37,054 nt of DNA from a virus. Every line of letters starts with the position of its first letter. Position 1 is the first letter of the stretch. Below, piece by piece: positions 3,418-17,272 of this stretch. Position numbers and translations under genes: made by a program. The notes below the pieces were generated by a model. The model was given only the letters and a program-made list of their open reading frames with translations, ran no database searches and was not told where the DNA came from. The stretch covers positions 1 through 37,054 of IMG/VR virus record IMGVR_UViG_3300033555_000014; one strand, 5' to 3'.

Positions 3418-4068
3418 ATGCTAAGAACAATCCACCTAGTGGGCAAGTTGTCCCGCTTCAGCAAGAAACCAGTGCAAATTGATGCCGACACGACCCAAAT
3501 GGTCATGCAAGGTCTCATTGCCATGTTCGGCCCATCTTTTAAGCAGATGGTTCGCGAAGGCGAATGGCACGTCACCCGCAACAAGAAACCAAAAGAGTGC
3601 AAAACTCTCGATGACAGCATCGGTGAAGAAGAACTCGCATTCGGCCTCGGCAACACAATTGAAATCTGGTTTGCACCGGCGGTCAAAGCTCTGTCGGCTG
3701 TAGTTCGTATTGTGGTTGGTGTGGTGCTCATTGTTGCAGGTATTTTCTTCAAGATGCCATTCCTCGTCAAGATGGGTGCCATGCTGGTACTTGGTGGTGT
3801 CAGCGAACTGTTGGCTCCTAAACCATCTGTCGGGCAGCAATCTCAGTCTGGGCAAAACCCGTCCTTCCTCTTCAACGGCACAGTAAATGTTACTGAACAA
3901 GGTGGTCCTGTACCAATTGTTTATGGACGTGTACGCCGCGCATCCTCGCTGGTTCTCTCAGCAGGCATCTCAACAGAAAATATGACAGTTACAGACACTG
4001 CACGTGGTAACACAACTACACGCGGCGGTACATACAAGAACGGTCAAGACTTCGTCCTGGAAGTATAA
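3418..4068 (+). CDS. I: Tail assembly protein I homologue (216 aa)
   Basis: SD aaaaggagtagcattATG. It has an N-terminal ubiquitin-like segment and a hydrophobic Gly/Ala/Val stretch. LVLGGVSELLAPKP...NPSFLFNGTVNVTEQGGPVPIVYGRVR matches lambda gpI MVLGGVAQMLAPK...SSLDNMVAQGNVLPVLYGEMR. Confidence 0.85.
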   Translation: MLRTIHLVGKLSRFSKKPVQIDADTTQMVMQGLIAMFGPSFKQMVREGEWHVTRNKKPKECKTLDDSIGEEELAFGLGNTIEIWFAPAVKALSAVVRIVVGVVLIVAGIFFKMPFLVKMGAMLVLGGVSELLAPKPSVGQQSQSGQNPSFLFNGTVNVTEQGGPVPIVYGRVRRASSLVLSAGISTENMTVTDTARGNTTTRGGTYKNGQDFVLEV

Positions 4069-7000
4069 TGGAAATCAAAAACGAAAACATTGTAGCAGCT
4101 GGTGGTTGCTTCCCAGCTGGAACGAAAATCAACACACCAATCGGCTACCGTCTCATTGAAGACTTGAAAGCCGGTGATGAGGTGTTTGCATTTACACTGG
4201 CACCACTCGAAGCTGGTATGCCTGACGAACAGCCAGGTCGTACATTCACAAAGACGATTACTGAAACTTTCAAGCACACATTTGGCGAGGTTGGCTACAC
4301 ATCACCTCTGCTGGAAATTACCTACCACGGTATTGCAGAACACGGTGCAATCCATGACGGGTTGTTGCTGGTTACCGGTAACCACTACATTCTGACACCT
4401 TCTCGCCAGTCAGCTGAAACTGACCCTGGCTTTGCACGTGCTGATGAGTTGCAAGTTGGTGACAAGCTGTGGACAGAATATGGCGATGCAGTTGAAATCG
4501 TTGCAATTACCCCAGCAGGTGAGTACGACTTCGTCTACAACTTTGAAGTTGCTGACTTCTCTACCTACATTGCTAGTGGCATCCGTGTCCACAACGGTGG
4601 TAGTGGTAAGAAACAACGTACACCAGTGCAGGCTCCTAACTCGGTTCGTACCAAGCAAGTTATTCGTGCTCTCTTCTGCCCAGGCGAAGGTGAGAGTGGT
4701 GGTCTGTTTAACTCAACTGACATTGCACAATCGGTTTACTTCGATGGTACACCACTGAAGAACTCTGATGGAACATACAACTTCAACAACATTTCAGTTG
4801 AACAACGTGTAGGTCTGCCTGACCAATCCATCATCAATGGCTTCTCAGCTGTTGAAGGCGAAGTTTTACTCGGTCTGCCAATTACTGCAGCTACACCAGC
4901 AACTCGTACTGTTTCTTCTGGTGCAATCGACGCAGTTCGCATCACCATTGAATTCCCACAAGGTTTGCAGAAGATTGACAAGAAAACAGGCGACGCTAAC
5001 GGCGCAACTGTAAACTTCGTCATCCAACGCCGTGTTGTAAACGGCACTTGGGAAACTGTCATCAGCCCAATCGTAACGGAAATGAGTTCTGGCCCGTTCA
5101 CCGCAGCATTCCACATTGCTCGCCCTGCTTCTACTGGTCCATGGGAATTCCGTGTTCAGCGTACTACACCTGACACCACCGCAAACGAAATCATCGACGA
5201 CACAGTTCTTGACAGCTACACTGAAATTCAAGACGTTAAACTGCCGTACAACAACCGTAGTCTTGTTGCAATTACTGTAGGCGCAGACAGCACCAACGGC
5301 AAAATCCCGTCAGTTGCATTTGACTGGGTTGGTGTCAAGGTAAAAGTTCCATCAAACTACAATGCGACAACTCGTGTGTACACTGGTGCATGGAACGGAA
5401 CCTGGTCGACAACTCTAGTTTCGTCAGACAACCCTGCATGGGTCATCTACGACTTGCTGACACACACTCGTTACGGCCAGGGCGAGCGCTTCAAAGAAAG
5501 CCAGCTGGACAAGTGGTCGTTCTACGAAGCTGCAAAGTACTGTGACGAACTCGTAAACGACGGTAAAGGTACTGGTACATTTGAACCACGCTTCACATTC
5601 AACGCACAGTTGATGGTTCGTGAGAATGCATGGAAGACTCTGAACACCATCGCTGCGACGATGAACGCGAAGCTGTACATGCACGCTGGTTTCGTCCGCG
5701 TGGCTCAAGACCGCCCTGCCACTCCGACACGCATCATTGCAAATTCGAATGCTCTAGAAGGTTTGTTCTCGTACTCGTCATCGTCTGTTGATGAAACCTA
5801 CACGATGTGCAATGTCACATACAACGACCCACTTGACAACTTCCTGCCGAAGACTGTCAGCGAAGTAGCTGCGACTGCTGACTTGACGCGCTATGGACTC
5901 AGCTCCGTCGACCTGGCTGCATACGGTGCAACCACCGAAGGCCAAGCTCGCCGCGCTGCAAAATGGGTAATCGACACCTCGCTTCGTCAAACCAGCATGG
6001 TAAACTTTGGTGTTTCGCTGGAGAATGCTGCATTTGAGCCGAACGAAATCTTCTACCTGATGGACTCAGACTACTCGCAGACAACTCAGGAAGGTCGTCT
6101 GGCAAACATTGCCGGTACCTCGCTGACACTTGACAAGTCCATCAACAAGACTGGTACAGGTACTTGGACGATTACCGTCTACGCAGCTGATGGTAACACG
6201 ATGGAAACCCGCACGATTACATCTGCAAACGGTGTTTCTGCCAACATTACTGTCAACGCAGCAATTACATCTGTAAAGGGCGCAGTCTACATCATTACTG
6301 GTTCTGTGTCTCCGCGTCAGTTCCGTATGGTAGGCATGACAGACAACGGCGACCTAACATACACGGTCACTGCGCTTCAACACGACCCTAACAAGTATGC
6401 TCGCATTGAACAAGGCATCATTCTTCCGGATGATGTGTACTGGCAGCCACCTAGTCTCAACAGCGTTAATGTACCAACAGGTTTGGTCATTGAACCACAA
6501 AGCGCAATCAACGAAGACGGGCAAGTTTTCCGCTTCCTGAACCTTTCGTGGAACCCACCAGCAGATGGCACGGCTCAACGTTACACTGTTCAGTGGCGTC
6601 GTAACCTACAACCGTTTACTATTGAGACGGTCAAGGACCCATTTGCTCGTATTACCAGCGATTTCTCGGGCAGCTACCAGTTCTACATCAATGCAGTCAA
6701 CTCAGCAAACGTAGCTTCGCCTACATTGTCGGGAACATATGTGTTCGAGTTTACTGGTGTTGGCTCACCAGTTTCTGTGCTTGGCCCAGTGTCTGCGCTG
6801 CAAATTGCTGGCGGTGGTACAATCTGGGACGGCGGTATTATGCGCGTCCAGTGGTTGGCACCAACAGAGATTGCCGGTGCAACACTCAAGGATTACAAGG
6901 TAGAACTTCAGACTCCAGGTGGAGCCGTGTTCAAAACGTTCTACACGAATGATGTCGGCTTCGCATACACTTACGAACAGAACTTGGCTGATGGTGGTCC

Positions 7001-9407
7001 TCGTACAACGATTCGTGTGAATGTATACGCACGTGACACATTGAACCGCGTCTCAACACAGACAACTTCAACCTTCAGCAGCCAAGCACCACAGACTATT
7101 ACGAACCTTCAAGTTCGTGGTACTGGTGGAACTGTGTTCACAACTCTTGACCTCGATGTTGAATGGACTGCAAACACTGTTGGTGGCCAACCATGGAAGA
7201 ATGACCCGAACTTTGGTTACTTCAAGGTTGAGATTCTGAGTGGAACAACTGTTCGCCGTACTGACCAAGTGTACGACAACAACTATGTTTACACTTATGC
7301 TGACAACATCAAGGACAACGGGGCAGAAACACCGTTGACTTCCATCATTGTTCGCGTCAGTGTTGTAACCAAGGCTGGTCTTGCTGGGCCATCTGGTTCT
7401 GCGACATTCACACCTGCTGCACCCCCGCAACCAACTAATCTCCAACTTGTCGGTGGTGGAACCGCAATTTCAACTGAAGACATCAGTGTTGAATGGACCG
7501 CTCTGTCTAATGGCTCAGCATACCATACACTTGACCTGTTCAAGTTCTACAAAGTTGAAGTTCTTGTTGGCACCACTGTCATGCGCACTGTGAACGTAAC
7601 TGATGGTGCTCGCTACACCTACCGTTTCGATGACAATATGAAGGACAATGGTCTTGGAACTCCTTCAGGCAACATTACGATTCGTGTAACCACAGTAAGT
7701 AAGTTCGGTGTTTCAAGCGCTCCAACCAGCACACTATTCACGGTCAAAGTTCCACCAACCGTAACCAATCTGACAATGAAGGGTGGTGGGTCGACGTACG
7801 CAGGTGAAGACCTGGAAGTTGTCTGGGATTGTTTAGACGAGAACGGAAAGCAGTTCGAAACCTACACTGCGTTCAAACACTACCGTGTAATCGTTTACAA
7901 AGGTGCTGGAACTACACCTCTTCGTACAGAGCTGGTACGAGTGCGTAACTTTGTTTACAGTCTGGCAATGAACCAGATTGACAACGGCGGCACAGCTATG
8001 AACAACCCCACAATTGAGGTTGTTGGTGTTAACACATTTAATGTCATCGGTGCAGAAGCTCAAATCAACTTCTCCAACCCACCTCCGTCTGCACCAGTCA
8101 TCGACTGCGAAGCTGGTGTCGAGATGGTGTTTGTCGATGTTGTACCAAACACTGCTGACAAAGATGTAATCGGTATTGAAGTACATGTGTCACAAACCGC
8201 GGGGTTCACACCATCCGGTAATACTGCTGGTGTAGGCACTTGTGTTTACAAAGGTAACGGTACTAGCTACTCGTTCAAAGCAACGCCAGGCACCTACTAC
8301 GTTCGCGTGGCTTGCTACGACATGTTCAACACCACAGGTCTTAACTACTCTGCACAAGCCATTGTGGTTGTTGCCGCGCCAATTACGTCCACCGATTACG
8401 AATTCCTAGGCTTCACTTGGACACCTAACAGCCCTACAACTAATTCAATTGGTTGGACTTCTGGCACCGTTCAGAAACGTGCTGGTGCATCAGGTGTTGG
8501 TACAACTTGGAACGTAACTGCAGGTTCGGCTGCTTGGTCATCTGCGTCGCTATACATCTACTGGGATGCAAACGTAACACCTACGACTTTCAAGAGTACG
8601 ACTGACCTAGCCATTGCAACAGGTATTGACAAGCGCATAGTTGCTTTGTATAAAGGTGGAACACAGCTGTTCTCGACTGATGGTAACCGTTTGATTGATG
8701 CATCAACAACAATCATCCCTAACACCATCTCTGCACCATTGTTGGTGACAGGTGCAGCTGTAATTACTGGCACAGCACAGATTGCTGATTTGATTGTTAC
8801 CGACGCGAAACTTGCTAATCTGACTGTTACAGCTGCAAAAATTGCAAATGCCGCAATTACAAACGCGAAGATTGGTAATGCACAGATTGACACGCTGAAG
8901 TTGACAAATGGCGCGGTTAATGACATCAAAACTGTTGTTACCTACCCGTACAGCAACTATTACAACATTGGTTTTAACACCACGGACAACTACTCAGTAT
9001 ACAGTTCGCCTTGGGCTACACCAGCACCAGCGGGTCTGCCAGGACCATTTAAGCAAACTGTGCTTATTCAATTGTTGATGCCACGTGTTATTTTCTTCCA
9101 AACCATGTGCATCCATACAGTATTTGCTTATGTTGAGTTCTTTGATGGTGCTTCATGGTTCAGCGGCCCAGGGCTACGTGGTAACAAAACCGTGGTTAAC
9201 CCAGCAGCTACAAATGCAACATACACCTCTGGAAATGATGCAAATGAGTTCTACCAAATTACACATGACGCAACACCAGGAATGCAGTACCGTATTAGAT
9301 TTGACATTACGTTCCACCAAACTATGACATCCACACCGCCACCTTATACCACGTCGGCTCGCTTCGACCACACTAACACGGTCACTGCTATTACGCAGAT
9401 GAAATAA
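4068..9407 (+). CDS. J: Tail tip / host-specificity protein J homologue (1779 aa) with an N-terminal mini-Hint domain and expanded FN3-like repeats
   Basis: TAATG overlap with I. NPAWVIYDLLTHTRYGQGERFKESQLDKWSFYEAAKYCDELVNDGKGTGTFEPRFTFNAQL aligns with lambda J NMAWCLWDMLTHPRYGMGKRLGAADVDKWALYVIGQYCDQSVPDGFGGTEPRITCNAYL. Residues 14-176 carry intein blocks A, B, F and G. Confidence 0.9.
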   Translation: MEIKNENIVAAGGCFPAGTKINTPIGYRLIEDLKAGDEVFAFTLAPLEAGMPDEQPGRTFTKTITETFKHTFGEVGYTSPLLEITYHGIAEHGAIHDGLLLVTGNHYILTPSRQSAETDPGFARADELQVGDKLWTEYGDAVEIVAITPAGEYDFVYNFEVADFSTYIASGIRVHNGGSGKKQRTPVQAPNSVRTKQVIRALFCPGEGESGGLFNSTDIAQSVYFDGTPLKNSDGTYNFNNISVEQRVGLPDQSIINGFSAVEGEVLLGLPITAATPATRTVSSGAIDAVRITIEFPQGLQKIDKKTGDANGATVNFVIQRRVVNGTWETVISPIVTEMSSGPFTAAFHIARPASTGPWEFRVQRTTPDTTANEIIDDTVLDSYTEIQDVKLPYNNRSLVAITVGADSTNGKIPSVAFDWVGVKVKVPSNYNATTRVYTGAWNGTWSTTLVSSDNPAWVIYDLLTHTRYGQGERFKESQLDKWSFYEAAKYCDELVNDGKGTGTFEPRFTFNAQLMVRENAWKTLNTIAATMNAKLYMHAGFVRVAQDRPATPTRIIANSNALEGLFSYSSSSVDETYTMCNVTYNDPLDNFLPKTVSEVAATADLTRYGLSSVDLAAYGATTEGQARRAAKWVIDTSLRQTSMVNFGVSLENAAFEPNEIFYLMDSDYSQTTQEGRLANIAGTSLTLDKSINKTGTGTWTITVYAADGNTMETRTITSANGVSANITVNAAITSVKGAVYIITGSVSPRQFRMVGMTDNGDLTYTVTALQHDPNKYARIEQGIILPDDVYWQPPSLNSVNVPTGLVIEPQSAINEDGQVFRFLNLSWNPPADGTAQRYTVQWRRNLQPFTIETVKDPFARITSDFSGSYQFYINAVNSANVASPTLSGTYVFEFTGVGSPVSVLGPVSALQIAGGGTIWDGGIMRVQWLAPTEIAGATLKDYKVELQTPGGAVFKTFYTNDVGFAYTYEQNLADGGPRTTIRVNVYARDTLNRVSTQTTSTFSSQAPQTITNLQVRGTGGTVFTTLDLDVEWTANTVGGQPWKNDPNFGYFKVEILSGTTVRRTDQVYDNNYVYTYADNIKDNGAETPLTSIIVRVSVVTKAGLAGPSGSATFTPAAPPQPTNLQLVGGGTAISTEDISVEWTALSNGSAYHTLDLFKFYKVEVLVGTTVMRTVNVTDGARYTYRFDDNMKDNGLGTPSGNITIRVTTVSKFGVSSAPTSTLFTVKVPPTVTNLTMKGGGSTYAGEDLEVVWDCLDENGKQFETYTAFKHYRVIVYKGAGTTPLRTELVRVRNFVYSLAMNQIDNGGTAMNNPTIEVVGVNTFNVIGAEAQINFSNPPPSAPVIDCEAGVEMVFVDVVPNTADKDVIGIEVHVSQTAGFTPSGNTAGVGTCVYKGNGTSYSFKATPGTYYVRVACYDMFNTTGLNYSAQAIVVVAAPITSTDYEFLGFTWTPNSPTTNSIGWTSGTVQKRAGASGVGTTWNVTAGSAAWSSASLYIYWDANVTPTTFKSTTDLAIATGIDKRIVALYKGGTQLFSTDGNRLIDASTTIIPNTISAPLLVTGAAVITGTAQIADLIVTDAKLANLTVTAAKIANAAITNAKIGNAQIDTLKLTNGAVNDIKTVVTYPYSNYYNIGFNTTDNYSVYSSPWATPAPAGLPGPFKQTVLIQLLMPRVIFFQTMCIHTVFAYVEFFDGASWFSGPGLRGNKTVVNPAATNATYTSGNDANEFYQITHDATPGMQYRIRFDITFHQTMTSTPPPYTTSARFDHTNTVTAITQMK
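4107..4595 (+). other. Hint (intein / bacterial-intein-like) domain embedded in J, 163 aa, no endonuclease domain, +1 residue Gly
   Basis: Block A is CFPAGTKINTPIGYRLIEDLKAGDEV, block B (TxxH) is LLLVTGNHYILT, and blocks F/G are YDFVYNFEVADFSTYIASGIRVHN. The domain is followed by GGSGKKQRTP. Confidence 0.8.
6768..8085 (+). repeat. Four tandem ~110-aa FN3-like modules within J (units start near 6768, 7089, 7425 and 7751)
   Basis: A pattern recurs in each unit: P.T(I/V)TNLq(v/l).G(G)G...D(l/i).VeW............(F/Y)K(V/Y)E(I/V)l.GTTV.RT..V.d..YtY....N..DNG.......I.V. Confidence 0.75.
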
Positions 9408-11102: not shown

Positions 11103-11510
11103 ATGCCGATTTCCTACTACGAAGCAAACAAAGTTCTTGACCACGAAAATGGCAAGACTGCGTACATCATGCCACAAGTTTTTGTGGGTCTGTCTTCGAC
11201 TACCCCAACGCAAGGTGCTCCAGTTACAACCGTGACTGAGCCAACCGGTGGCGCATACGCTCGTGTTGCTACGACTGGTGCTAGCTGGAACGCTGCTGCT
11301 ACTGGTGCAACGTCGAACGCTACTGCAATTACCTTCCCTACAGCCACCGCTGACTGGGCTGCTGGTGCCAACTTGACCCACTTCGTGTTCTACGATGCTG
11401 CTACCGTTGGAAACATCCTCGGTTACGCACCTCTGACTACCGCAAAGAATGCACTGAACGGAGACACTCTCTCCTTCGCTGCTGGCGCGGTTACTCGTAC
11501 CCTGGCTTAA
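11103..11510 (+). CDS. Hypothetical tail-fibre-associated protein (135 aa)
   Basis: An ORF of Ala/Thr/Gly-rich composition (VGLSSTTPTQGAPVTTVTEPTGGAYARV...ITFPTATADWAAGANLTHFVFYDAATVGNILGY). It is followed by a UUCG-loop hairpin. Confidence 0.55.
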   Translation: MPISYYEANKVLDHENGKTAYIMPQVFVGLSSTTPTQGAPVTTVTEPTGGAYARVATTGASWNAAATGATSNATAITFPTATADWAAGANLTHFVFYDAATVGNILGYAPLTTAKNALNGDTLSFAAGAVTRTLA

Positions 11511-11967: not shown

Positions 11968-13728
11968 ATGGCTGACAATGTAAATATTAAAGACTTCGCG
12001 GGACTGGTTGCAACAGTTCTTACTGACGAAGTTATTGGCTCGGCATTCGGCGCTGGACAAGTTCAAGTTTTTAAACAGATGGACGGCACTGCTGGTTCAA
12101 CAAACCTCGCAATTGTAAATGCTGCAGGTGCTGCGTTGTCTGCTACAGCGGATGGTGCAGGTGCGCTGATTAACTCGCTGACTGCCGGTGCAGGACAAAA
12201 CGGTCTGATGACTGCCATTGGTGCAACGAACTTCGTTTCAAGTGCTGGTAACTCAACTACCGCGCAGCTTCTTGGTGGTGCTACGTTCACAGGAACAATC
12301 GAGTCCATCTTCAACCAACAAGACATCTCCATCCTCCTGACCTCTGACCAGTCAGGCACATTGATTATGCGTCAATACATCGACTCAGGTGGAACCCGTG
12401 TGGCTTCTACTTGGACATTCTTTGTTGTTGCTGGTGTACCATACTCGAGGTCCTTCGTCGGAAACGGTAACTTCTTCAACTTGACGTTCCAAAATACTGC
12501 CGCGACTCTTTCCACCACGCTCAACATCAACACCGCTTATGGTACGTTGTCCTCTTCAACGAACCAAGGTAACCATCCTGTGTCGCTGGCTGAGAGCTCA
12601 GTTGCAAGCGTTGTTAACAGCTCTGTTACCAATCTAGCCGCTGCCGCTGTGTTTACTGGACCTGCTGAAGACATTTTGGAATATGCTGAAGTTCGCGTGT
12701 TCGCATATTCGAGTCATACATCTGCAGTTGACGGCCTGTCTTTGCAACAATCTGTTGACGGTACAACGTGGTTCCAAACTGACACGTGGACAATCGGTGC
12801 AACAACTGCCAAGACGTTTGGCGTTGGTGCGTCTGCAAGGTATTTCCGTGTGGTTTACACCAACGGTGCGACTGCAACTACCACTCTTCAACTGCAAACA
12901 ATCTTCCACAAGCACGCAACGAAGCCAACGGCTCAGCGTCCTTCAGATGGTTACACCAACGAATTTGACGGCGAACAACAAATCTCGTACCAGATGGTTT
13001 ACAACGGAACGACTTGGGACCGCCAACAAGGTTCTGCTGGTTCAATGAACGTTCGCCAACCAGATGCAACTGCTTCTGCCTCCCTTGCTGCAGCTGCCGC
13101 TACCGCTACTCTGGCTGTAAATGGTGCTTCTGGAACTGCAATTCAAATCACCGGAACTTTCGTTGCAACTCTTCAGTTTGAAGGTACTGTTGACGGCACC
13201 AACTGGGTCTCGCTGTTCTCGACGCCTAACGGTACTGCCACAACTGTAACCTCTGCAACTGCTGTAGGTGTGTGGCTTGGTAAATCAGGTGGTTTTAGCT
13301 CAATTCGCGTTCGTGCTTCAGCATACACCTCTGGTACTGCTGTTGTAACAATTCGCGCTGGTCAAGGCACTGGTAACATAACAGTTGATGCACCAGTTCG
13401 TCTCAACCAGACACGCGCTCTGTCCGACAGCCAAGGTACAACTTGTACTACGACTGCTGCGACCACCGTTCTGGCAGCTGGTGGTGTTGGTGTGTTCCAT
13501 GACCTGACCAACATTACCATCGCAAACGGTGCTGCGACTGCAACTGTTGCTACTCTGTCGGATGGAACCAAGACGTACCTGTACCCATTGGCTGCAGGTA
13601 TTGGTTCTGGTGTGGTGGTTTCCTTGCCAACACCACGCAAAGCAACTACCGCAAACGTAGCATGGACAGTCGCTCTGTCTGTGGCATCTACTGTTCAAGT
13701 ACACCTCGACTATGTAAAGAACTCATAA
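11968..13728 (+). CDS. Putative tail fibre / receptor-binding protein with three related beta-sandwich-like segments (586 aa)
   Basis: The composition is Ala/Gly/Thr/Ser-rich. A module recurs three times: GATFTGTIES...NFFNLTFQNTAATLSTTLNINTAY; AAVFTGPAED...ARYFRVVYTNGATATTTLQLQTIFH; GTAIQITGTF...SSIRVRASAYTSGTAVVTIRAG. Confidence 0.55.
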   Translation: MADNVNIKDFAGLVATVLTDEVIGSAFGAGQVQVFKQMDGTAGSTNLAIVNAAGAALSATADGAGALINSLTAGAGQNGLMTAIGATNFVSSAGNSTTAQLLGGATFTGTIESIFNQQDISILLTSDQSGTLIMRQYIDSGGTRVASTWTFFVVAGVPYSRSFVGNGNFFNLTFQNTAATLSTTLNINTAYGTLSSSTNQGNHPVSLAESSVASVVNSSVTNLAAAAVFTGPAEDILEYAEVRVFAYSSHTSAVDGLSLQQSVDGTTWFQTDTWTIGATTAKTFGVGASARYFRVVYTNGATATTTLQLQTIFHKHATKPTAQRPSDGYTNEFDGEQQISYQMVYNGTTWDRQQGSAGSMNVRQPDATASASLAAAAATATLAVNGASGTAIQITGTFVATLQFEGTVDGTNWVSLFSTPNGTATTVTSATAVGVWLGKSGGFSSIRVRASAYTSGTAVVTIRAGQGTGNITVDAPVRLNQTRALSDSQGTTCTTTAATTVLAAGGVGVFHDLTNITIANGAATATVATLSDGTKTYLYPLAAGIGSGVVVSLPTPRKATTANVAWTVALSVASTVQVHLDYVKNS

Positions 13729-13729
13729 T

Positions 13730-14380
13730 ATGGCAATCGGCGCTGTTACTCTAATGGTTTCAGGTGCAGATGTAGCGACAACAACGAATAACATCGTTAC
13801 AGCGTCGTTTACCTGCACTGCTGGCCGACTGTATTTGTTGATGTTGTCTGAAAGTACCACGTGCAGTGGTGTAACTGCTGGTCAGAACGCATCTACCAAC
13901 TGGGCTTACCAGAAGACACAGACGAACGGTACTGGTATTATTGTCGAAGTATTCGGTGGTATTTGCACGACTACAACAACTGCCACAATGACTATTTCTT
14001 GGGCTGGTGCAACAACAGCTTCGTATGCGGTCATTGAAGTTCAGCAACCTAAAGCTGCAAATACAATTGTTCAGAAGTTGTCTGCGGCTGCTGCGACCGT
14101 TACGATGGGTGCTCGTTCCCCAACTGGTGATGACCCTGCAATTTTTGTGTGTGCGCGTAACACCAACGCCATGTCACCTAAAACACTCTACGTAGCGACA
14201 GCCAACATTGGGGTCACCCATCGTTTGCTTTGTAGTTACAACAGCATCTTTGACACGGCTCCTTCATTTAGCGGAACACTTGCTGCCAGCGCAATCATCG
14301 GGCTTGAAGTTGGTTCTATTGCGCTGCCGGGAACTGCTACACCGGGTGGGTTGAAAATGACAGGGTATGGTGCACCATGA
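13730..14380 (+). CDS. Hypothetical protein (216 aa), fibre module
   Basis: ATG lies 1 nt after the fibre stop, with an ATGA overlap onto the next gene. I recognise no motif. Confidence 0.55.
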   Translation: MAIGAVTLMVSGADVATTTNNIVTASFTCTAGRLYLLMLSESTTCSGVTAGQNASTNWAYQKTQTNGTGIIVEVFGGICTTTTTATMTISWAGATTASYAVIEVQQPKAANTIVQKLSAAAATVTMGARSPTGDDPAIFVCARNTNAMSPKTLYVATANIGVTHRLLCSYNSIFDTAPSFSGTLAASAIIGLEVGSIALPGTATPGGLKMTGYGAP

Positions 14381-16254
14381 GTCTACTTCTATTCTTTAAC
14401 GGCACAAGCGAAGCCGCAGGTGCCATTAAGGAGCTTGCAGGTGCTTTGCTTGAAGCTGCAACTCTTGCTGGTAACCTCAGCCGTGGCCGACCTTTATTCG
14501 GAACTTTGTCTGAGAGCGAAACAATCTCTGCAGCTCTTGTGCGCGTTCGCACAATGTCAGGTTCCTTGTCTCAGACGGAAACGATTGTTGGTAACTACAA
14601 TCGCCTTCGCGCAATCATTGGCACTCTCGCTGAGGTTGAAACCCTAACTGCCACAATCGGTCGTTCGCGTCCTATTGCTGGAACTCTCGCTGAGGTAGAA
14701 ACCCTCTCGGCTGCTTTGTCTCGTGCAAAGAATATTGCTGGTTCATTTACTGAGAACGAAACCCTTGCAGGTGCTGTGCTTCGTGCTCGAGCATTAACAG
14801 GTGCTCTTGCAGAAGCCGAGGCCTTAGCTGCCAATCTACGTCGGTCGCGAAGCGTTGCTGGTTCATTGGCAGAGTTGGAAACTATTTCAGGTGCTTTGAA
14901 TCGTGCGAAAACAGTTGCTGGTAACCTGACAGAAGCAGAAACCTTGGCAGCTGTGATGTCGCGCACTCGTGCAATTGCTGCTTCGTTGGCTGAAGTTGAG
15001 ACACTGGCAGCTGCAGTGAGTCGTGCTCGTACAATTGCAGGAACTCTTTCTGAAATCGAAACACTGCTTGGTGCAATCGACAAACTGAAGGTACTTGCTG
15101 GAGCGTTGCTCCAAAGTGAAACAATTTCAGGTTCTGTAGTACGTGGCCGTGGATTGATTGCACTGCTAGCTGAAGTTCAAATTTTGTCTGGCAATACAAA
15201 CCGTGGACGGGCTGTTACTGGCTTATTGTCAGAAGTTGAAACTCTTGCTGGTGTGAATAGCCGTGTCAGAGATGTAAATGGAACGCTGGTAGAAAATGAA
15301 GCATTCACTGCATCGACTGTTCGCAATCGTCAGTTGGTGGCATTGTTGTCTGAAGTCGAGACACTTTCTGCTTCGATTGTACGAGGCAAGAACGTTCAAG
15401 GTTCCCTTACAGAAGTTGAAACTCTTGTTGCTGAGTTTAACCGTCTTCGTGTGCTTACTGCTGAGCTGAACGAAGTAACAAACGCTGCTGGTTCGTTGTC
15501 ACGACTTCGCACACTTGCTGGCGAGCTTGTTGAAATTGAAACGCTGAATGATGCTGCGCTTGTCAAAATCAAGTTGTTGGCTGGTGCTTTAATCGAGGCA
15601 TCTTTCTTGGCGGGTGACTTTACACGTAACCGAGGTTTGGCTGGGTTGTTTGTCGAAAATAGTGGGTTGAACGGTTACACTGCACGCCTGCGCGAAATTT
15701 CATCGACGATGAATGAAACATCTACAATTTCAAATGTTTCAATGTCCCGTCTTCGTAATGTAATTGGTTCGCTTAACCAGAACGAAACACTTTTGGGTCT
15801 ACTCATTAAAACGAGTGGTCTTGCTGGTGAGCTGACAGGTGTTCTTTCTCAGACAGAAGTATTGGTTGGTGCGATGCAACGTCTGCGCAACATGGCTGGT
15901 GCAATTCTAGAAACAGAAACATTCTCACCTGCTTTGTTGGAACGTGTTCGAGGTCTTGTTGGTGATTTAGAACAGTTTGAAACAATTTCTGGCACAGTAA
16001 CAGTAACCATCACCACAGTAGATGTTGGGTCATTCTCGCTCACCGCAACCTGGTACGAGTGGGTTGATGATGGGCGCACCTTTGACCAGGTAATGAAGAC
16101 TTCTACTTGGACAGTGGCTCGTCAAGGACCATTGCAGAACTTCGACATTCCTGTTGGCGAAACAGTCACGTTGACGTTCGATTTGCCAGAAACTGTGTCG
16201 TTTGAAGTGGCTACTGCATCTGTACAGGCCTTCGAAATACCTGTTGCGGCATGA
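14377..16254 (+). CDS. Tandem-repeat protein: ~26 x 20-residue repeats plus a ~95-aa C-terminal domain (625 aa)
   Basis: A 60-nt periodicity is visible in the translation. The unit consensus is (I/L/V)AG(T/S)L(A/S)E(V/A)ETL(S/A)AA(L/V)SR(A/T)R(T/A), for example IAGTLAEVETLSAALSRAKN, VAGSLAELETISGALNRAKT and IAASLAEVETLAAAVSRART. Confidence 0.75.
   Translation: MSLLLFFNGTSEAAGAIKELAGALLEAATLAGNLSRGRPLFGTLSESETISAALVRVRTMSGSLSQTETIVGNYNRLRAIIGTLAEVETLTATIGRSRPIAGTLAEVETLSAALSRAKNIAGSFTENETLAGAVLRARALTGALAEAEALAANLRRSRSVAGSLAELETISGALNRAKTVAGNLTEAETLAAVMSRTRAIAASLAEVETLAAAVSRARTIAGTLSEIETLLGAIDKLKVLAGALLQSETISGSVVRGRGLIALLAEVQILSGNTNRGRAVTGLLSEVETLAGVNSRVRDVNGTLVENEAFTASTVRNRQLVALLSEVETLSASIVRGKNVQGSLTEVETLVAEFNRLRVLTAELNEVTNAAGSLSRLRTLAGELVEIETLNDAALVKIKLLAGALIEASFLAGDFTRNRGLAGLFVENSGLNGYTARLREISSTMNETSTISNVSMSRLRNVIGSLNQNETLLGLLIKTSGLAGELTGVLSQTEVLVGAMQRLRNMAGAILETETFSPALLERVRGLVGDLEQFETISGTVTVTITTVDVGSFSLTATWYEWVDDGRTFDQVMKTSTWTVARQGPLQNFDIPVGETVTLTFDLPETVSFEVATASVQAFEIPVAA
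14434..15996 (+). repeat. Coding tandem repeat array, 60-bp period, diverged at DNA level
   Basis: Units are counted from residue 20 to about residue 540 of the 625-aa protein. An artefactual antisense ORF (14595..15083) is a by-product of the periodicity. Confidence 0.75.
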
Positions 16255-16297: not shown

Positions 16298-16846
16298 ATG
16301 CCTAATACTAACCACAATAACAGAGGTACTGACAATGATGGGCCGGGACGTAGAGCTTATGACAGCTCTACGATTATTCAACCTGTCATCATTAATCAGC
16401 ACTCAGGGGATGACAAAATGGCTGAAACTAGCGAACGCGTAGCAGTTGTAGAAACGATTGCCAAGCGCAACGAGCAAAGCATTGAGCGTCTCATAGAAGA
16501 GAACTCAACGATGAAAGCAAACAACGCAAGTCTTTTTGCCGAGGTAAATCAAGGATTGATGCTGTTGAAGCAGACTGTTGAAGTTCAATGCCGAACACAG
16601 GAGGCAATTGCTGGTCGTGTAGACAGCGTTGTTACTCGGGTGGGAGCCCTAGAAGTTGGGCTTGCCCATCACAAGAACGAGGTGGACAAGGGCCACCAGG
16701 TATTGCATGTAAAGATTGATGGTGTAGATTCCAGCTGGCGCGGAGAGAAAGCTCGTCTCCTTGCCTGGGCCGGTGGTATTACATTCGTCATCTCAGGACT
16801 TTGGACAGTTTTCGGTGGTACTGTGAAGACGTTCCTCGGCCAATAA
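16298..16846 (+). CDS. Coiled-coil protein with a C-terminal transmembrane anchor (182 aa; XhlA-like architecture)
   Basis: SD aggagtttaatATG. The central region is a heptad-like helix, and the C-terminus is hydrophobic (LLAWAGGITFVISGLWTVFGGTV). This is the last gene of the rightward unit. Confidence 0.5.
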   Translation: MPNTNHNNRGTDNDGPGRRAYDSSTIIQPVIINQHSGDDKMAETSERVAVVETIAKRNEQSIERLIEENSTMKANNASLFAEVNQGLMLLKQTVEVQCRTQEAIAGRVDSVVTRVGALEVGLAHHKNEVDKGHQVLHVKIDGVDSSWRGEKARLLAWAGGITFVISGLWTVFGGTVKTFLGQ

Positions 16847-17134: not shown

Positions 17135-17272
17135 TTATAATTCGTTTGCTACATCCATCAGACGGTTAATTGTCTCCAGGATGAGCTTGTCTAACTTCTT
17201 CAGTTTCTCTTCTTGTCCGCCCATTTCAATGAGCAGAATTCTTGCAGTTCGTAATTGGCTGATGAGATTCAC
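17135..17272 (-). CDS. Possible micro-ORF (45 aa from GTG with a GTGA overlap, or 29 aa from ATG 17224)
   Basis: It is not in the track (<60 aa) and fills the gap between two leftward genes. The predicted peptide is helical: ...MGGQEEKLKKLDKLILETINRLMDVANEL. Confidence 0.3.
   Translation of the reverse strand: MNLISQLRTARILLIEMGGQEEKLKKLDKLILETINRLMDVANEL

What the first reader, a model, noticed from the sequence alone, without database searches (positions are those of the whole stretch)
14377..16254. 625-aa protein made of about 26 tandem 20-residue repeats (G-x-L-x-E-x-E-T-L ... R-x-R) in the fibre module
From residue 20 to about residue 540 the translation is a nearly unbroken 20-aa periodic array. 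Examples are IIGTLAEVETLTATIGRSRP, IAGTLAEVETLSAALSRAKN, VAGSLAELETISGALNRAKT and IAASLAEVETLAAAVSRART, with a few units of 21 or 24 residues. Conserved positions are a hydrophobic residue at 1, Gly at 3, Leu at 5, E-x-E-T-L at 7-11 and R/K-x-R/K at 17-19. The DNA copies are diverged, so the array is old and maintained by selection rather than by recent slippage. The array is followed by a non-repetitive beta-type C-terminal domain of about 95 aa. I cannot assign the repeat to any named phage fibre repeat (it is not collagen-like, not the Phage_fiber_2 repeat, and not a heptad coiled coil). The strict alternation of an acidic patch and a basic patch every 20 residues suggests a solenoid or trimeric fibre with inter-layer salt bridges, possibly a length-determining or flexible fibre shaft.
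Basis: seen in the sequence. Interest (0 to 1): 0.65.

Follow-up and report, generated by a model that had tools for sequence, protein, structure and literature searches.

The report
Repeat "rope" for a bead-chain phage fibre
This phage protein really is 26 copies of a 20-residue unit, and it is most likely the thread on which many copies of a small neighbouring protein (Gp80-like) are strung to make a bead-chain tail fibre whose length is set by the repeat number.

Summary
ORF 14377-16254 encodes 625 aa with 26 tandem 20-residue units (residues 20-546; the first 19 are in perfect register). The DNA copies are diverged, and a roughly 79-aa beta-type C-terminal domain follows. Each 20-mer is two related decapeptides (L-A-E-V-E-T-L-A-G-x and L-x-R-x-R-x-I-A-G-x).

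No Pfam family matches. HMMER finds 622 cluster representatives with similar arrays, most of the examined top hits having a 20-aa period.

The key finding is genomic linkage. The window and all four homologues with retrievable context (5/5) have a Gp80-family gene (PF23140) 0-3 genes upstream. Conversely, 10 of 12 Gp80-containing phage loci have a gene with a 20-21-aa period next to it.

In the solved GP4 and Bas63/Sf14 structures, Gp80/whisker dimers are threaded like beads on an extended "rope" chain. In the Felixounavirus relatives that chain is encoded by the adjacent gene.

Best explanation (about 0.55): the array is a very long rope, each unit docking one Gp80 dimer (or monomer), with the C-terminal domain as the anchor.

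Main rival (about 0.25): a self-standing trimeric shaft related to the N4 gp66 and marine T7-like decapeptide fibres, with Glu/Arg ladders.

I rate it a new variant of a known kind. The threading itself is inferred, not shown.

The parts
14377..16254 (+). Gene for the 625-aa repeat protein, the proposed rope (thread) subunit. Stop codon included.
   Evidence: ORF and translation. The exact protein is also called on an independent Logan contig.
14377..14433 (+). N-terminal 19 residues (MSLLLFFNGTSEAAGAIKE) ahead of the array. Possibly a cap or an attachment peptide.
   Evidence: Segmentation. GP4 gp79 and BcepIL02 gp56 also have a roughly 20-aa non-repeat N-terminus.
14434..16014 (+). Array of 26 tandem 20-residue units (residues 20-546). 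Each unit is two decapeptides, an acidic half L-A-E-V-E-T-L-A-G-x and a basic half L-x-R-x-R-x-I-A-G-x. Residues 20-399 (nt 14434-15573) are in perfect register.
16015..16251 (+). Non-repetitive C-terminal beta domain (residues 547-625), conserved in at least 10 homologues. Proposed virion anchor, by analogy with the collar domain of Bas63/FelixO1 gp4.
   Evidence: phmmer hits to P0021, P0031, P0048, P0010, P0009 and others. Alignment A2. AF2 model with pLDDT 61 showing a beta-meander. No significant fold match.
11103..11510 (+). Gp80-family gene (135 aa), the proposed bead subunit that binds the repeat units as dimers.
   Evidence: Pfam PF23140 at E = 3.7e-33. PDB 8jou_a, GP4 fiber I protein, at E = 8e-12. 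AAGGA Shine-Dalgarno-like motif upstream.
13730..14380 (+). 216-aa ORF overlapping the repeat gene start in ATGA. It is weakly homologous to the N-terminal domain that is fused to the array in relatives (P0021, P0009), so it is probably a distal (payload) partner.
   Evidence: BLASTP 31% identity over 116 aa, colinear from both N-termini, E = 0.002. Junction sequence.
11968..13728 (+). 586-aa fibre-module protein between the Gp80-like gene and the rope gene. No family assigned, and its part in the assembly is uncertain.
   Evidence: Only a sub-threshold DUF6385 hit. No PDB sequence match. No periodicity.

Best explanation
The 625-aa protein is the thread ("rope") of a composite bead-on-a-string fibre.

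Its 26 twenty-residue units are serial docking sites for the Gp80-like protein encoded about 3 kb upstream (11103-11510). That protein forms dimers. Each monomer has an incomplete beta-sandwich, and an extended segment of the rope completes it.

The two related decapeptide halves of each unit (acidic E-x-E-T and basic R-x-R) would each fill one monomer of a dimer. That gives one dimer per 20-mer: up to 26 dimers, or 52 Gp80 copies. The inferred length is roughly 170 nm if the chain is extended at about 3.3 A per residue. A stoichiometry of one monomer per 20-mer (13 dimers) is the alternative.

The conserved C-terminal beta domain anchors the fibre to the virion, with the same topology as the Bas63/FelixO1 collar protein (N-terminal rope, C-terminal globular domain). 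The N-terminal end, probably together with the translationally coupled 216-aa protein, is distal. Repeat number sets fibre length.

Shown:
- the repeat anatomy;
- the family;
- the Gp80 linkage.

Taken from published structures of other phages:
- threading of Gp80/whisker dimers on a rope.

Inferred:
- that this array is such a rope;
- the stoichiometry;
- the polarity.
For: 1. A bona fide Gp80-family gene lies on the same strand in the same module (PF23140 at 3.7e-33; 8jou_a at 8e-12).

2. Starting from the repeat side, all four homologues whose contigs could be read have a PF23140 gene 0-3 genes upstream. These are P0001 and P0003, P0004 and P0002. The phages have different morphologies, including a myovirus and a phage with a Mu-like portal. 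With the window that is 5/5. By contrast, only about 1% of 50,697 phage records hold a Gp80-like match.

3. Starting from the Gp80 side, 10 of 12 loci have a neighbouring gene with significant 20/21-aa periodicity (z = 3.4-17). The other flanking genes I tested score about -2 to +2.8 at those periods. The arrays of C72C1, Gabriela gp24, P0001, P0003 and P0004 match our unit profile (z = 8.5-31).

4. Published cryo-EM shows GP4 fiber I as five gp80 dimers on an independent rope protein. In Bas63, whisker dimers are "beads on a string" around the collar's N-terminal rope, which completes each monomer's sandwich (PMC12609058). In Sf14, gp30 threads through the whiskers (PMC11821841).

5. FelixO1 gp4 (Cys52/69/90, i.e. 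the collar) is encoded immediately upstream of the whisker gene gp5. Its pre-globular N-terminus of about 45 aa would carry the four monomers modelled in Bas63. That is about 10-11 aa per monomer, matching our 10-aa half-unit.

6. Phages whose fibres have the simple 10-aa period (marine T7-like) have no Gp80-like ORF in the structural regions fetched. N4 gp66 has the same 10-aa repeat, but I did not scan the N4 genome for Gp80. So the doubling of the period to 20 goes together with the dimeric partner.

7. GP4's own gene next to gp80 (gp79) has about 11 twenty-residue units, and 8JOU has ten gp80 chains.

8. AF2 gives no confident autonomous fold (pLDDT 44). The LSH1 authors saw the same for the protein next to their GP4-fibril-like dimer (PMC13243795).
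Against: - No direct evidence of binding or threading for this protein.
- I could not read the GP4 paper, so I have not verified that gp79 is the GP4 rope. Its sequence is not among PDB chains.
- GP4 gp79 and BcepIL02 gp56 share the period but not our motif (z = 0.2 and 2.3).
- Both halves of our unit match, in register, the decapeptide of N4 gp66 and of marine T7-like fibres. N4 gp66 is a trimer, and the marine phages lack Gp80 in the regions examined. So such arrays can exist without beads.
- The alternation of Glu and Arg at the positions that are Asn/Asn in those fibres is just what in-register stacking of successive repeats would select.
- The Gp80 gene is not adjacent here. It lies three to four genes upstream.
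- No collar or adaptor homologue was found in the window.
- The two stoichiometry estimates disagree (Bas63 about 10 aa per monomer; GP4 count about 20).
Confidence: 0.55

Rival explanations
1. The array folds on its own as a homotrimeric beta-structured fibre shaft, for example a triple beta-helix or spiral built from decapeptide strands. Successive decapeptides would stack in register, and Glu-x-Glu strands would alternate with Arg-x-Arg strands to form salt-bridge ladders. This is essentially the first reader's idea. Gp80 would be a separate fibre component or a decoration.
For: - Weak but consistent sequence matches to the N4 gp66 appendage (PHROG 29955 at 4e-8; PDB 9lc0 at 2e-4 and 7e-6). 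The N-terminal part of gp66 was modelled as a trimer (PMC13434306).
- tblastn hits to annotated tail fibres of Pelagibacter, Roseobacter and Synechococcus podophages. Their repeat is I-A-N-V-N-T-V-A-G-S.
- Both halves of our unit match that decapeptide only in register 0.
- The two Asn positions are replaced alternately by E/E and R/R. That is what stacking of neighbouring repeats would favour.
- The marine phages have no Gp80-like ORF in the regions fetched.
Against: - The 5/5 and 10/12 linkage to Gp80 genes is left unexplained.
- The protein has only 19 residues ahead of the array. There is no T7 gp17-like or N4-like trimeric attachment domain.
- AF2 gave no beta-solenoid, only low-confidence helices.
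- The matches to gp66 and the marine fibres are periodic, low-identity matches (22-27%).
Confidence: 0.25
2. The array is an alpha-helical rod, a non-canonical coiled coil with a 3-3-4 (decad) hydrophobic spacing at positions 1, 4 and 7 of each decapeptide.
For: - The single-sequence AF2 model is almost all helix.
- The composition is rich in Ala, Leu, Glu and Arg.
- The hydrophobic positions 1/4/7 recur every 10 residues.
- The N-terminal decapeptides of N4 gp66 look helical by eye (alignment).
Against: - The AF2 confidence is very low (pLDDT 44, pTM 0.28).
- Gly (or Ala) is conserved every 10 residues at unit positions 3 and 13.
- Homologous arrays are rich in Ser, Thr and Val, and some have Pro at the unit boundary (P0001).
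- A continuous 10/3 periodicity is outside the range normally tolerated by alpha-helical coiled coils. This rests on established coiled-coil knowledge and was not tested here.
- There is no heptad signal.
Confidence: 0.08
3. The array is a flexible, largely disordered spacer that merely separates an N-terminal partner from the C-terminal domain. It would have no specific binding partner for the repeats.
For: Low AF2 confidence. No fold assignment. Variable unit number among homologues.
Against: Position-specific conservation is very strong (E7, E9, T10, R17, R19, L5 and G3 in 15-18 of 19 units) even though the DNA is saturated with synonymous change. The same 20-aa period is conserved across hundreds of diverged proteins. 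A passive spacer would not be constrained like this.
Confidence: 0.05

Closest known systems
Fiber I of Ralstonia podophage GP4 (gp80 dimers on a rope protein; PDB 8JOU)
   Same: - A Gp80-family gene is present.
- A protein with a 20-aa period is encoded in the same module. In GP4 it is the next gene, gp79, with about 11 units.
- Both have a short non-repeat N-terminus and a C-terminal domain of about 80 aa.
- The literature describes the GP4 fibre as chain-like, with five gp80 dimers linked by an elongated rope (PMC12609058; the abstract of Zheng et al. 2023 is from my memory).
   Different: - Our array is about 2.5 times longer (26 against about 11 units).
- It has a different motif. There is no detectable unit similarity to gp79 (z = 0.2).
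- The phage is a lambda-like siphovirus, not a podovirus.
- The rope gene is 3 kb from the Gp80 gene.
- No 93-aa Ig-like adaptor was detected.
- I have not verified that gp79 is the GP4 rope.
Collar/whisker complex of Felixounaviruses (Bas63 gp4/gp5, Sf14 gp30/gp31; PDB 9MT4)
   Same: - One polypeptide carries an N-terminal rope and a C-terminal globular beta domain.
- Bead dimers sit end-to-end on the rope.
- The rope gene and the bead gene are neighbours.
- About 10 aa of rope per bead monomer agrees with our 10-aa half-unit.
   Different: - The Bas63 rope holds only two dimers on about 45 residues and has no clean repeat.
- It is a neck structure in a myovirus.
- The whisker protein is smaller (110 aa) and only marginally similar to Gp80 by sequence (E = 1.4e-5 in a two-sequence search).
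Decapeptide repeat of coliphage N4 gp66 appendages and of marine T7-like podophage tail fibres (PHROG 29955 / 22284)
   Same: Each half of our unit matches the consensus I-A-N-V-N-T-V-A-G-S in the same register: hydrophobic at 1, 4 and 7, Thr at 6, Ala-Gly at 8-9. The HMM matches are significant but weak.
   Different: - Their period is 10, not 20.
- The polar positions are Asn/Asn rather than alternating Glu/Glu and Arg/Arg.
- Those proteins have large N- and C-terminal domains, and N4 gp66 is a trimer.
- No Gp80-like ORF was found in the structural regions of the four marine phages. N4 itself was not scanned.
LSH1 'extra structural module' gp34-gp36 (Alishewanella siphovirus; PMC13243795)
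   Same: A siphovirus module in which a GP4-fibril-like dimer (gp35) always co-occurs with a large protein. Part of that protein is long, unpredictable and 'maybe repetitive', and could not be modelled. The same situation applies here.
   Different: I did not examine the LSH1 sequences, so homology of its gp34 C-terminal region to our array is untested. The authors did not propose a rope role.
Bead-chain neck fibre of Anabaena myophage A-1(L)
   Same: A long (about 100 nm) flexible fibre made of many repeated globular beads (PMC10966104).
   Different: Its beads are trimers of gp81 joined head-to-tail without a threading rope. Its gp80 is unrelated to GP4 gp80. It is only a loose functional analogy.

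Membership tests
GP4 fiber I / Felixounavirus whisker type rope-and-bead fibre (rope component) | A Gp80/whisker-family bead protein is encoded in the same module | tested here: met
   Window 11103-11510: PF23140 at 3.7e-33 and 8jou_a at 8e-12. The same holds for the 4/4 homologue loci.
GP4 fiber I / Felixounavirus whisker type rope-and-bead fibre (rope component) | The rope is encoded next to the bead gene | tested here: met
   FelixO1 gp4/gp5 are adjacent, as are Sf14 gp30/gp31. Periodic genes sit adjacent or near in 10/12 Gp80 loci. In the window the two genes share strand and module but are 2.9 kb apart, with three or four genes between them depending on the gene call.
GP4 fiber I / Felixounavirus whisker type rope-and-bead fibre (rope component) | An extended single chain threads through bead dimers and completes their beta-sandwiches | not testable with these tools
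   This needs a multimer structure prediction or an experiment. Only monomer AF2 was available, and it gave pLDDT 44.
GP4 fiber I / Felixounavirus whisker type rope-and-bead fibre (rope component) | Sequence similarity of the repeat unit to the candidate GP4 rope (gp79) or to BcepIL02 gp56 | tested here: not met
   Cyclic unit-profile z = 0.2 (GP4) and 2.3 (BcepIL02), against 8.5-31 for true homologues. Only the 20-aa period is shared.
GP4 fiber I / Felixounavirus whisker type rope-and-bead fibre (rope component) | An Ig-like collar or fibre adaptor anchors the rope | tested here: inconclusive
   No phmmer hit in the window to GP4 gp77, BcepIL02 gp57 or the FelixO1 gp4 C-terminal part. Our own C-terminal beta domain might play this role, but its fold could not be assigned.
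N4 gp66 / marine T7-like decapeptide tail-fibre repeat | Decapeptide h-x-N-x-N-T-h-A-G-x repeated with period 10 | tested here: inconclusive
   Both halves of our unit match in register 0 (scores 15.8 and 11.4, against negative scores in all other registers). However, the true period is 20 and the Asn pairs are replaced by E/E and R/R.
N4 gp66 / marine T7-like decapeptide tail-fibre repeat | Large terminal domains, including an N-terminal tail-attachment domain of a trimeric fibre | tested here: not met
   Only 19 residues precede the array. There are no Pfam or PHROG domain hits outside the repeats.
Named Pfam fibre or solenoid repeats (collagen-like, Phage_fiber_2, pentapeptide, hexapeptide and others) | A match to the family HMM | tested here: not met
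   Zero Pfam-A families at E <= 0.01 for our protein, and none credible for 9 homologues. Self-identity at offset 5 is 5% and at offset 6 is 10%, which is background.
Heptad alpha-helical coiled coil | A 7-residue (3.5 per turn) hydrophobic periodicity | tested here: not met
   Identity is 9% at offset 7 and 11% at offset 14, against 28% at offset 20.

The most novel reading that the evidence does not exclude
The 20-residue unit is a general, modular docking code for Gp80-family dimers: one dimer per unit and one monomer per decapeptide half. A whole, so far unannotated, class of phage proteins would then be ropes that build composite bead-chain fibres whose length is set digitally by repeat number. 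That class comprises hundreds of clusters across sipho-, myo- and podoviruses and includes many mycobacteriophage minor tail proteins. This window would hold one of the longest, at 26 units. The simple decapeptide fibres of N4 and marine T7-like phages would be the bead-less relatives from which, or to which, the system evolved.
Probability: 0.4. Interest if true: 0.72.

Novelty: new variant of a known kind. Interest (0 to 1): 0.6.

Why it matters
If the array is a rope, it explains a widespread class of unannotated repetitive phage proteins that AlphaFold cannot model, a puzzle stated explicitly for phage LSH1. It would link them to the Gp80/whisker family, which is often mis-annotated as "head protein". 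It would also give a simple rule for composite fibre architecture: the number of units gives the number of beads, and so the fibre length.

That would improve annotation of receptor-binding modules, including in hundreds of mycobacteriophages. It would also offer a naturally modular scaffold whose length can be read from the sequence.

If instead the array is a self-standing trimeric shaft with alternating Glu/Arg ladders, it would be a new fibre fold related to the still unsolved shaft of N4 gp66.

Tried and rejected
- **Near-identical DNA.** Megablast of the region against 50,697 phage records found no match.
- **Word-indexed homologue searches.** They saturated on the repetitive query.
- **Related loci.**
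  - Searches with our protein in viral and genome collections gave no confirmed relatives.
  - Searches with P0021 or P0009 in viral contigs also gave none.
  - The A2 alignment was too diverged to search with.
  - The metagenome scan with P0021 hit only its middle domain on truncated contigs, which was uninformative.
- **Single-sequence AF2 of the whole protein.** Low confidence and all helix, so I did not use it as evidence of fold.
- **AF2 of the C-terminal domain with 11 sequences, plus Foldseek against PDB.** The model was moderate and no match reached E < 0.1.
- **Identifying the GP4 rope.**
  - The paper is not held.
  - gp79 and gp78 are not among PDB sequences.
  - It is possible the rope chain was deposited as unknown residues.
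- **Programmed frameshift fusing the 216-aa ORF to the rope.** There is no canonical slippery heptamer in the 69-nt overlap of open frames, so I dropped the idea.
- **Pentapeptide-repeat or hexapeptide beta-helix, and heptad coiled coil.** Rejected on periodicity.
- **Ser-rich top hits (P0005, P0008).** These are low-complexity SESLS-type proteins that match through periodic composition, not as relatives.
- **A-1(L) bead-chain neck fibre.** It is built from a different kind of protein and has no rope.
Full report
**1. The observation**

The ORF at 14377-16254 (+) is real and encodes 625 aa. The identical protein is also called on an independent public contig.

- Self-identity peaks at offsets 20, 40, 60 and 80 (24-28%). 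The maximum over 500 shuffles was 14%, and z = 16 at offset 20.
- Profile-guided segmentation gives 26 units from residue 20 to 546. The first 19 units (20-399) have no indel. Later units have 1- or 4-residue insertions.
- The units are only 49% identical in DNA and 40% in protein. Conserved residues use many synonymous codons, and Tandem Repeats Finder reports nothing. So this is an old array under purifying selection.
- The C-terminal non-repeat part is about 79 aa, not 95, and is predicted to be beta.

One feature is new. There is a 10-residue sub-period. Each unit is two related decapeptides:
- half A: L-[AS]-E-V-E-T-L-[AS]-[GA]-x
- half B: [LIV]-x-R-x-R-x-[LIV]-A-G-x

The halves align with each other only in register 0.

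**2. Genomic setting**

The window is a tailed phage with a lambda-like tail-tip module:
- tape-measure end, gpM/L/K/I-like genes, and a 1779-aa gpJ-like central fibre;
- terminase, portal, scaffold and capsid genes further on.

Downstream of gpJ lie several small ORFs, then in order:
- a Gp80-family gene (11103-11510; PF23140 at 3.7e-33; GP4 fiber I protein 8jou_a at 8e-12);
- a 586-aa ORF;
- a 216-aa ORF;
- the repeat gene, whose ATG overlaps the previous stop in ATGA;
- a 182-aa ORF, after which transcription direction flips.

No close DNA relative exists among 50,697 phage records.

**3. Relatives of the repeat**

Pfam has nothing for this protein. PHROGs gives weak hits to an N4-type "appendage" family and to a tail-fibre family. 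The only PDB sequence hit is coliphage N4 gp66. Only residues ~1-80 of gp66 were modelled, as a trimer (PMC13434306).

The exhaustive HMMER search finds 622 cluster representatives, 132 of them at E <= 1e-10. Of the 60 top hits I checked, most have a best period of 20 and a few of 10. Two of the top hits are low-complexity Ser-rich proteins. None of nine homologues has a credible Pfam domain.

At least ten homologues share our C-terminal domain. In P0021 and P0009 the array is preceded by large N-terminal domains. The first of these is weakly homologous to the 216-aa ORF upstream of our gene. So what is one protein there is two translationally coupled genes here.

tblastn against phages hits annotated tail fibres of Pelagibacter, Roseobacter and Synechococcus podophages. 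Their repeat is the decapeptide I-A-N-V-N-T-V-A-G-S, like that of N4 gp66. Both halves of our unit match it in register 0 only. Our 20-mer is therefore a doubled decapeptide. The two Asn positions have become Glu/Glu in one half and Arg/Arg in the other.

**4. The decisive clue: linkage to Gp80**

The four homologues returned with usable context were found by repeat similarity alone. They come from different samples and are 25-30% identical to ours. All four have a PF23140 gene 0-3 genes upstream:
- P0001;
- P0003, in a phage with a Mu-like portal;
- P0004, in a myovirus, with the Gp80 gene immediately adjacent;
- P0002.

With the window this makes 5/5. By contrast, only about 1% of phage records hold a Gp80-like match (490 of 50,697, mostly mycobacteriophages).

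Going the other way, I examined 12 loci containing Gp80-like genes. In 10 of them a neighbouring gene has significant 20- or 21-aa periodicity. The other flanking genes I tested score about -2 to +2.8 at those periods.

| Locus | Periodic gene | z |
|---|---|---|
| GP4 | gp79 | 5.2 |
| BcepIL02 | gp56 | 7.4 |
| C72C1 | next gene | 4.4 |
| phiM5 | next gene | 3.4 |
| DSL-LC06 | next gene | 4.2 |
| MW202496 | third gene downstream (period 21) | 9.0 |
| Labeouficaum | gp32 | 5.8 |
| Gabriela | gp24 | 4.9 |
| Window | repeat gene | 16 |
| P0001 locus | P0001 | 17 |

Against our unit profile, the arrays of C72C1, Gabriela gp24, P0001, P0003 and P0004 are clearly homologous (z = 8.5-31). GP4 gp79 and BcepIL02 gp56 share only the period (z = 0.2 and 2.3).

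The four marine podophages with the plain decapeptide repeat have no Gp80-like ORF in the 27-31 kb fetched, which includes their annotated structural genes.

**5. What Gp80 does in solved structures**

- In GP4, fiber I consists of five gp80 dimers linked by an independent elongated "rope" protein that interlocks with an Ig-like adaptor (PMC12609058; PMC11445570). 8JOU contains ten gp80 chains.
- In Bas63, whisker dimers (structural homologues of gp80) sit end-to-end "like beads on a string" around the N-terminal rope extension of the collar protein. The rope runs through a groove in each monomer and completes its incomplete beta-sandwich.
- In Sf14, gp30 threads through the whiskers, which contain gp31.

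I identified the collar gene in FelixO1 as gp4. It has Cys at 52, 69 and 90, as described for Bas63, and lies immediately upstream of the whisker gene gp5. About 45 residues precede its globular part. In Bas63 that stretch holds four whisker monomers, which is about 10-11 residues per monomer.

In GP4, the gene next to gp80 has about 11 units of 20 aa between a 20-aa N-terminus and an 85-aa C-terminus. I could not verify from the paper or from PDB sequences that it is the rope.

**6. Best explanation**

The 26-unit array is a rope, and each 20-mer is a docking site for a Gp80-like dimer, with one decapeptide half per monomer. The doubling of the period from 10 to 20 in Gp80-linked arrays fits a dimeric partner. 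So does the difference between the two halves, because a pseudo-symmetric dimer would sit on a polar chain.

- On the Bas63-derived figure, the fibre would carry up to 26 dimers. Its inferred length is roughly 170 nm if the chain is extended.
- On the GP4 count (10 monomers, about 10-11 units), it would carry 13 dimers.

The conserved C-terminal beta domain would be the virion anchor, with the same topology as the collar protein. The N-terminus, with the coupled 216-aa protein, would be distal.

The shown parts are the anatomy, the family and the linkage. Threading, stoichiometry and polarity are inferred. I put this at about 0.55.

**7. Rivals**

- **A self-standing trimeric beta shaft with Glu/Arg ladders (about 0.25).**
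  - For: the in-register relation to the N4 gp66 and marine decapeptide fibres, which appear to work without Gp80.
  - For: the Asn/Asn to Glu/Arg alternation, which in-register stacking of successive repeats would favour.
  - Against: it does not explain the Gp80 linkage.
  - Against: the protein lacks any N-terminal attachment domain.
- **A non-canonical helical rod (about 0.08).**
  - For: only a low-confidence AF2 model.
  - Against: Gly or Ala conserved every ten residues, and homologous arrays rich in Ser, Thr, Val and Pro.
- **A passive disordered spacer (about 0.05).** This does not fit the strict position-specific conservation.

**8. Comparison and novelty**

The closest known systems are GP4 fiber I and the Felixounavirus collar/whisker complex. 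This case differs in several ways:
- the host phage type is a lambda-like siphovirus, and the gene sits in the tail-tip module;
- the array is far longer;
- the unit is a well-defined doubled decapeptide with alternating charge;
- it belongs to a large sequence family that no Pfam model covers.

I found no paper that connects such repeats with Gp80. The LSH1 authors explicitly could not explain the unpredictable, possibly repetitive protein next to their GP4-fibril-like dimer.

I therefore rate it a new variant of a known kind, with moderate-to-high interest. The rope role remains an inference from context, periodicity and structures of other phages.

**9. What failed**

The word-indexed homologue searches saturated on the repeats. 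Locus searches for close relatives found none. The C-terminal domain model (pLDDT 61) has no significant fold match. No collar or adaptor homologue was found in the window. No slippery site supports a frameshift fusion with the upstream ORF.

Noticed in passing
window 4068-9407 (+), residues 14-178 of the product: The 1779-aa gpJ-like central tail fibre begins with a HINT / pretoxin-HINT domain (PF07591 at 1.7e-9, PF13403 at 1.2e-5). This lies ahead of the usual FNIII-A_GpJ and Phage-tail_3 domains, which is an unusual N-terminal addition for a gpJ homologue (the same is seen on the Logan contig).
   Followed up: no
window 13730-14380 (+) and the junction at 14377-14380: A 216-aa ORF ends in TGA overlapping the ATG of the repeat gene (ATGA). 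It is weakly homologous (31% over 116 aa) to the N-terminal domain that is fused to the array in relatives P0021 and P0009. This points to a gene split or fusion. I saw no canonical slippery heptamer in the 69-nt stretch where both frames are open.
   Followed up: partly
window 14595-15083 (-) and 14882-15199 (-): Antisense ORFs of 162 and 105 aa lie inside the repeat gene. The longest antisense frame (14598-15176) shows the same 20-aa periodicity. They are shadows of the repeat, not genes.
   Followed up: yes
L015 6340-8628 (Mycobacterium phage Gabriela gp24), L014 4789-5949 (Labeouficaum gp32), L016 5080-5976 (ChipMunk gp34): Mycobacteriophage proteins next to Gp80-like genes carry 4-13 units of a 20-aa repeat joined to Gly-rich domains. 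Gabriela gp24 is annotated as a minor tail protein; the other two are annotated as hypothetical. Gabriela gp24 matches our unit profile (z = 8.5). 412 mycobacteriophage records have a Gp80-like gene.
   Followed up: partly
L021 33709-34541 (Salmonella phage FelixO1 gp4 and gp5): FelixO1 gp4 is annotated as hypothetical. It has Cys52/69/90 and therefore corresponds to the Bas63 collar-with-rope protein. The adjacent gp5 is annotated 'head protein' and is the whisker. It weakly matches a Gp80 HMM. Gp80-family genes are widely labelled 'head protein' through PHROG 240.
   Followed up: partly
L008 2206-3183 (Ralstonia phage GP4, gene after gp80) and L013 6416-7273 (BcepIL02 gp56): Both virion-associated proteins share an N-terminal ...P-I-N-G-W motif followed by about 11 units of a Gly-rich 20-aa repeat. 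They are the obvious candidates for the GP4-type rope, but their sequences are absent from PDB chain sequences.
   Followed up: partly
window 16298-16846 (+): The 182-aa ORF after the repeat gene ends in a hydrophobic, membrane-like segment. It is the last plus-strand gene before the divergent minus-strand block that starts at 17269, so it may be a lysis or membrane protein.
   Followed up: no
P0005 (4608 aa) and P0008 (1240 aa) from the representative search: The top-scoring hits include huge Ser-rich proteins with a 10-aa SESLSTSLST-type repeat. They score through periodic composition and are probably unrelated surface proteins. This is a caution for anyone counting the family size from the 622 hits.
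   Followed up: partly
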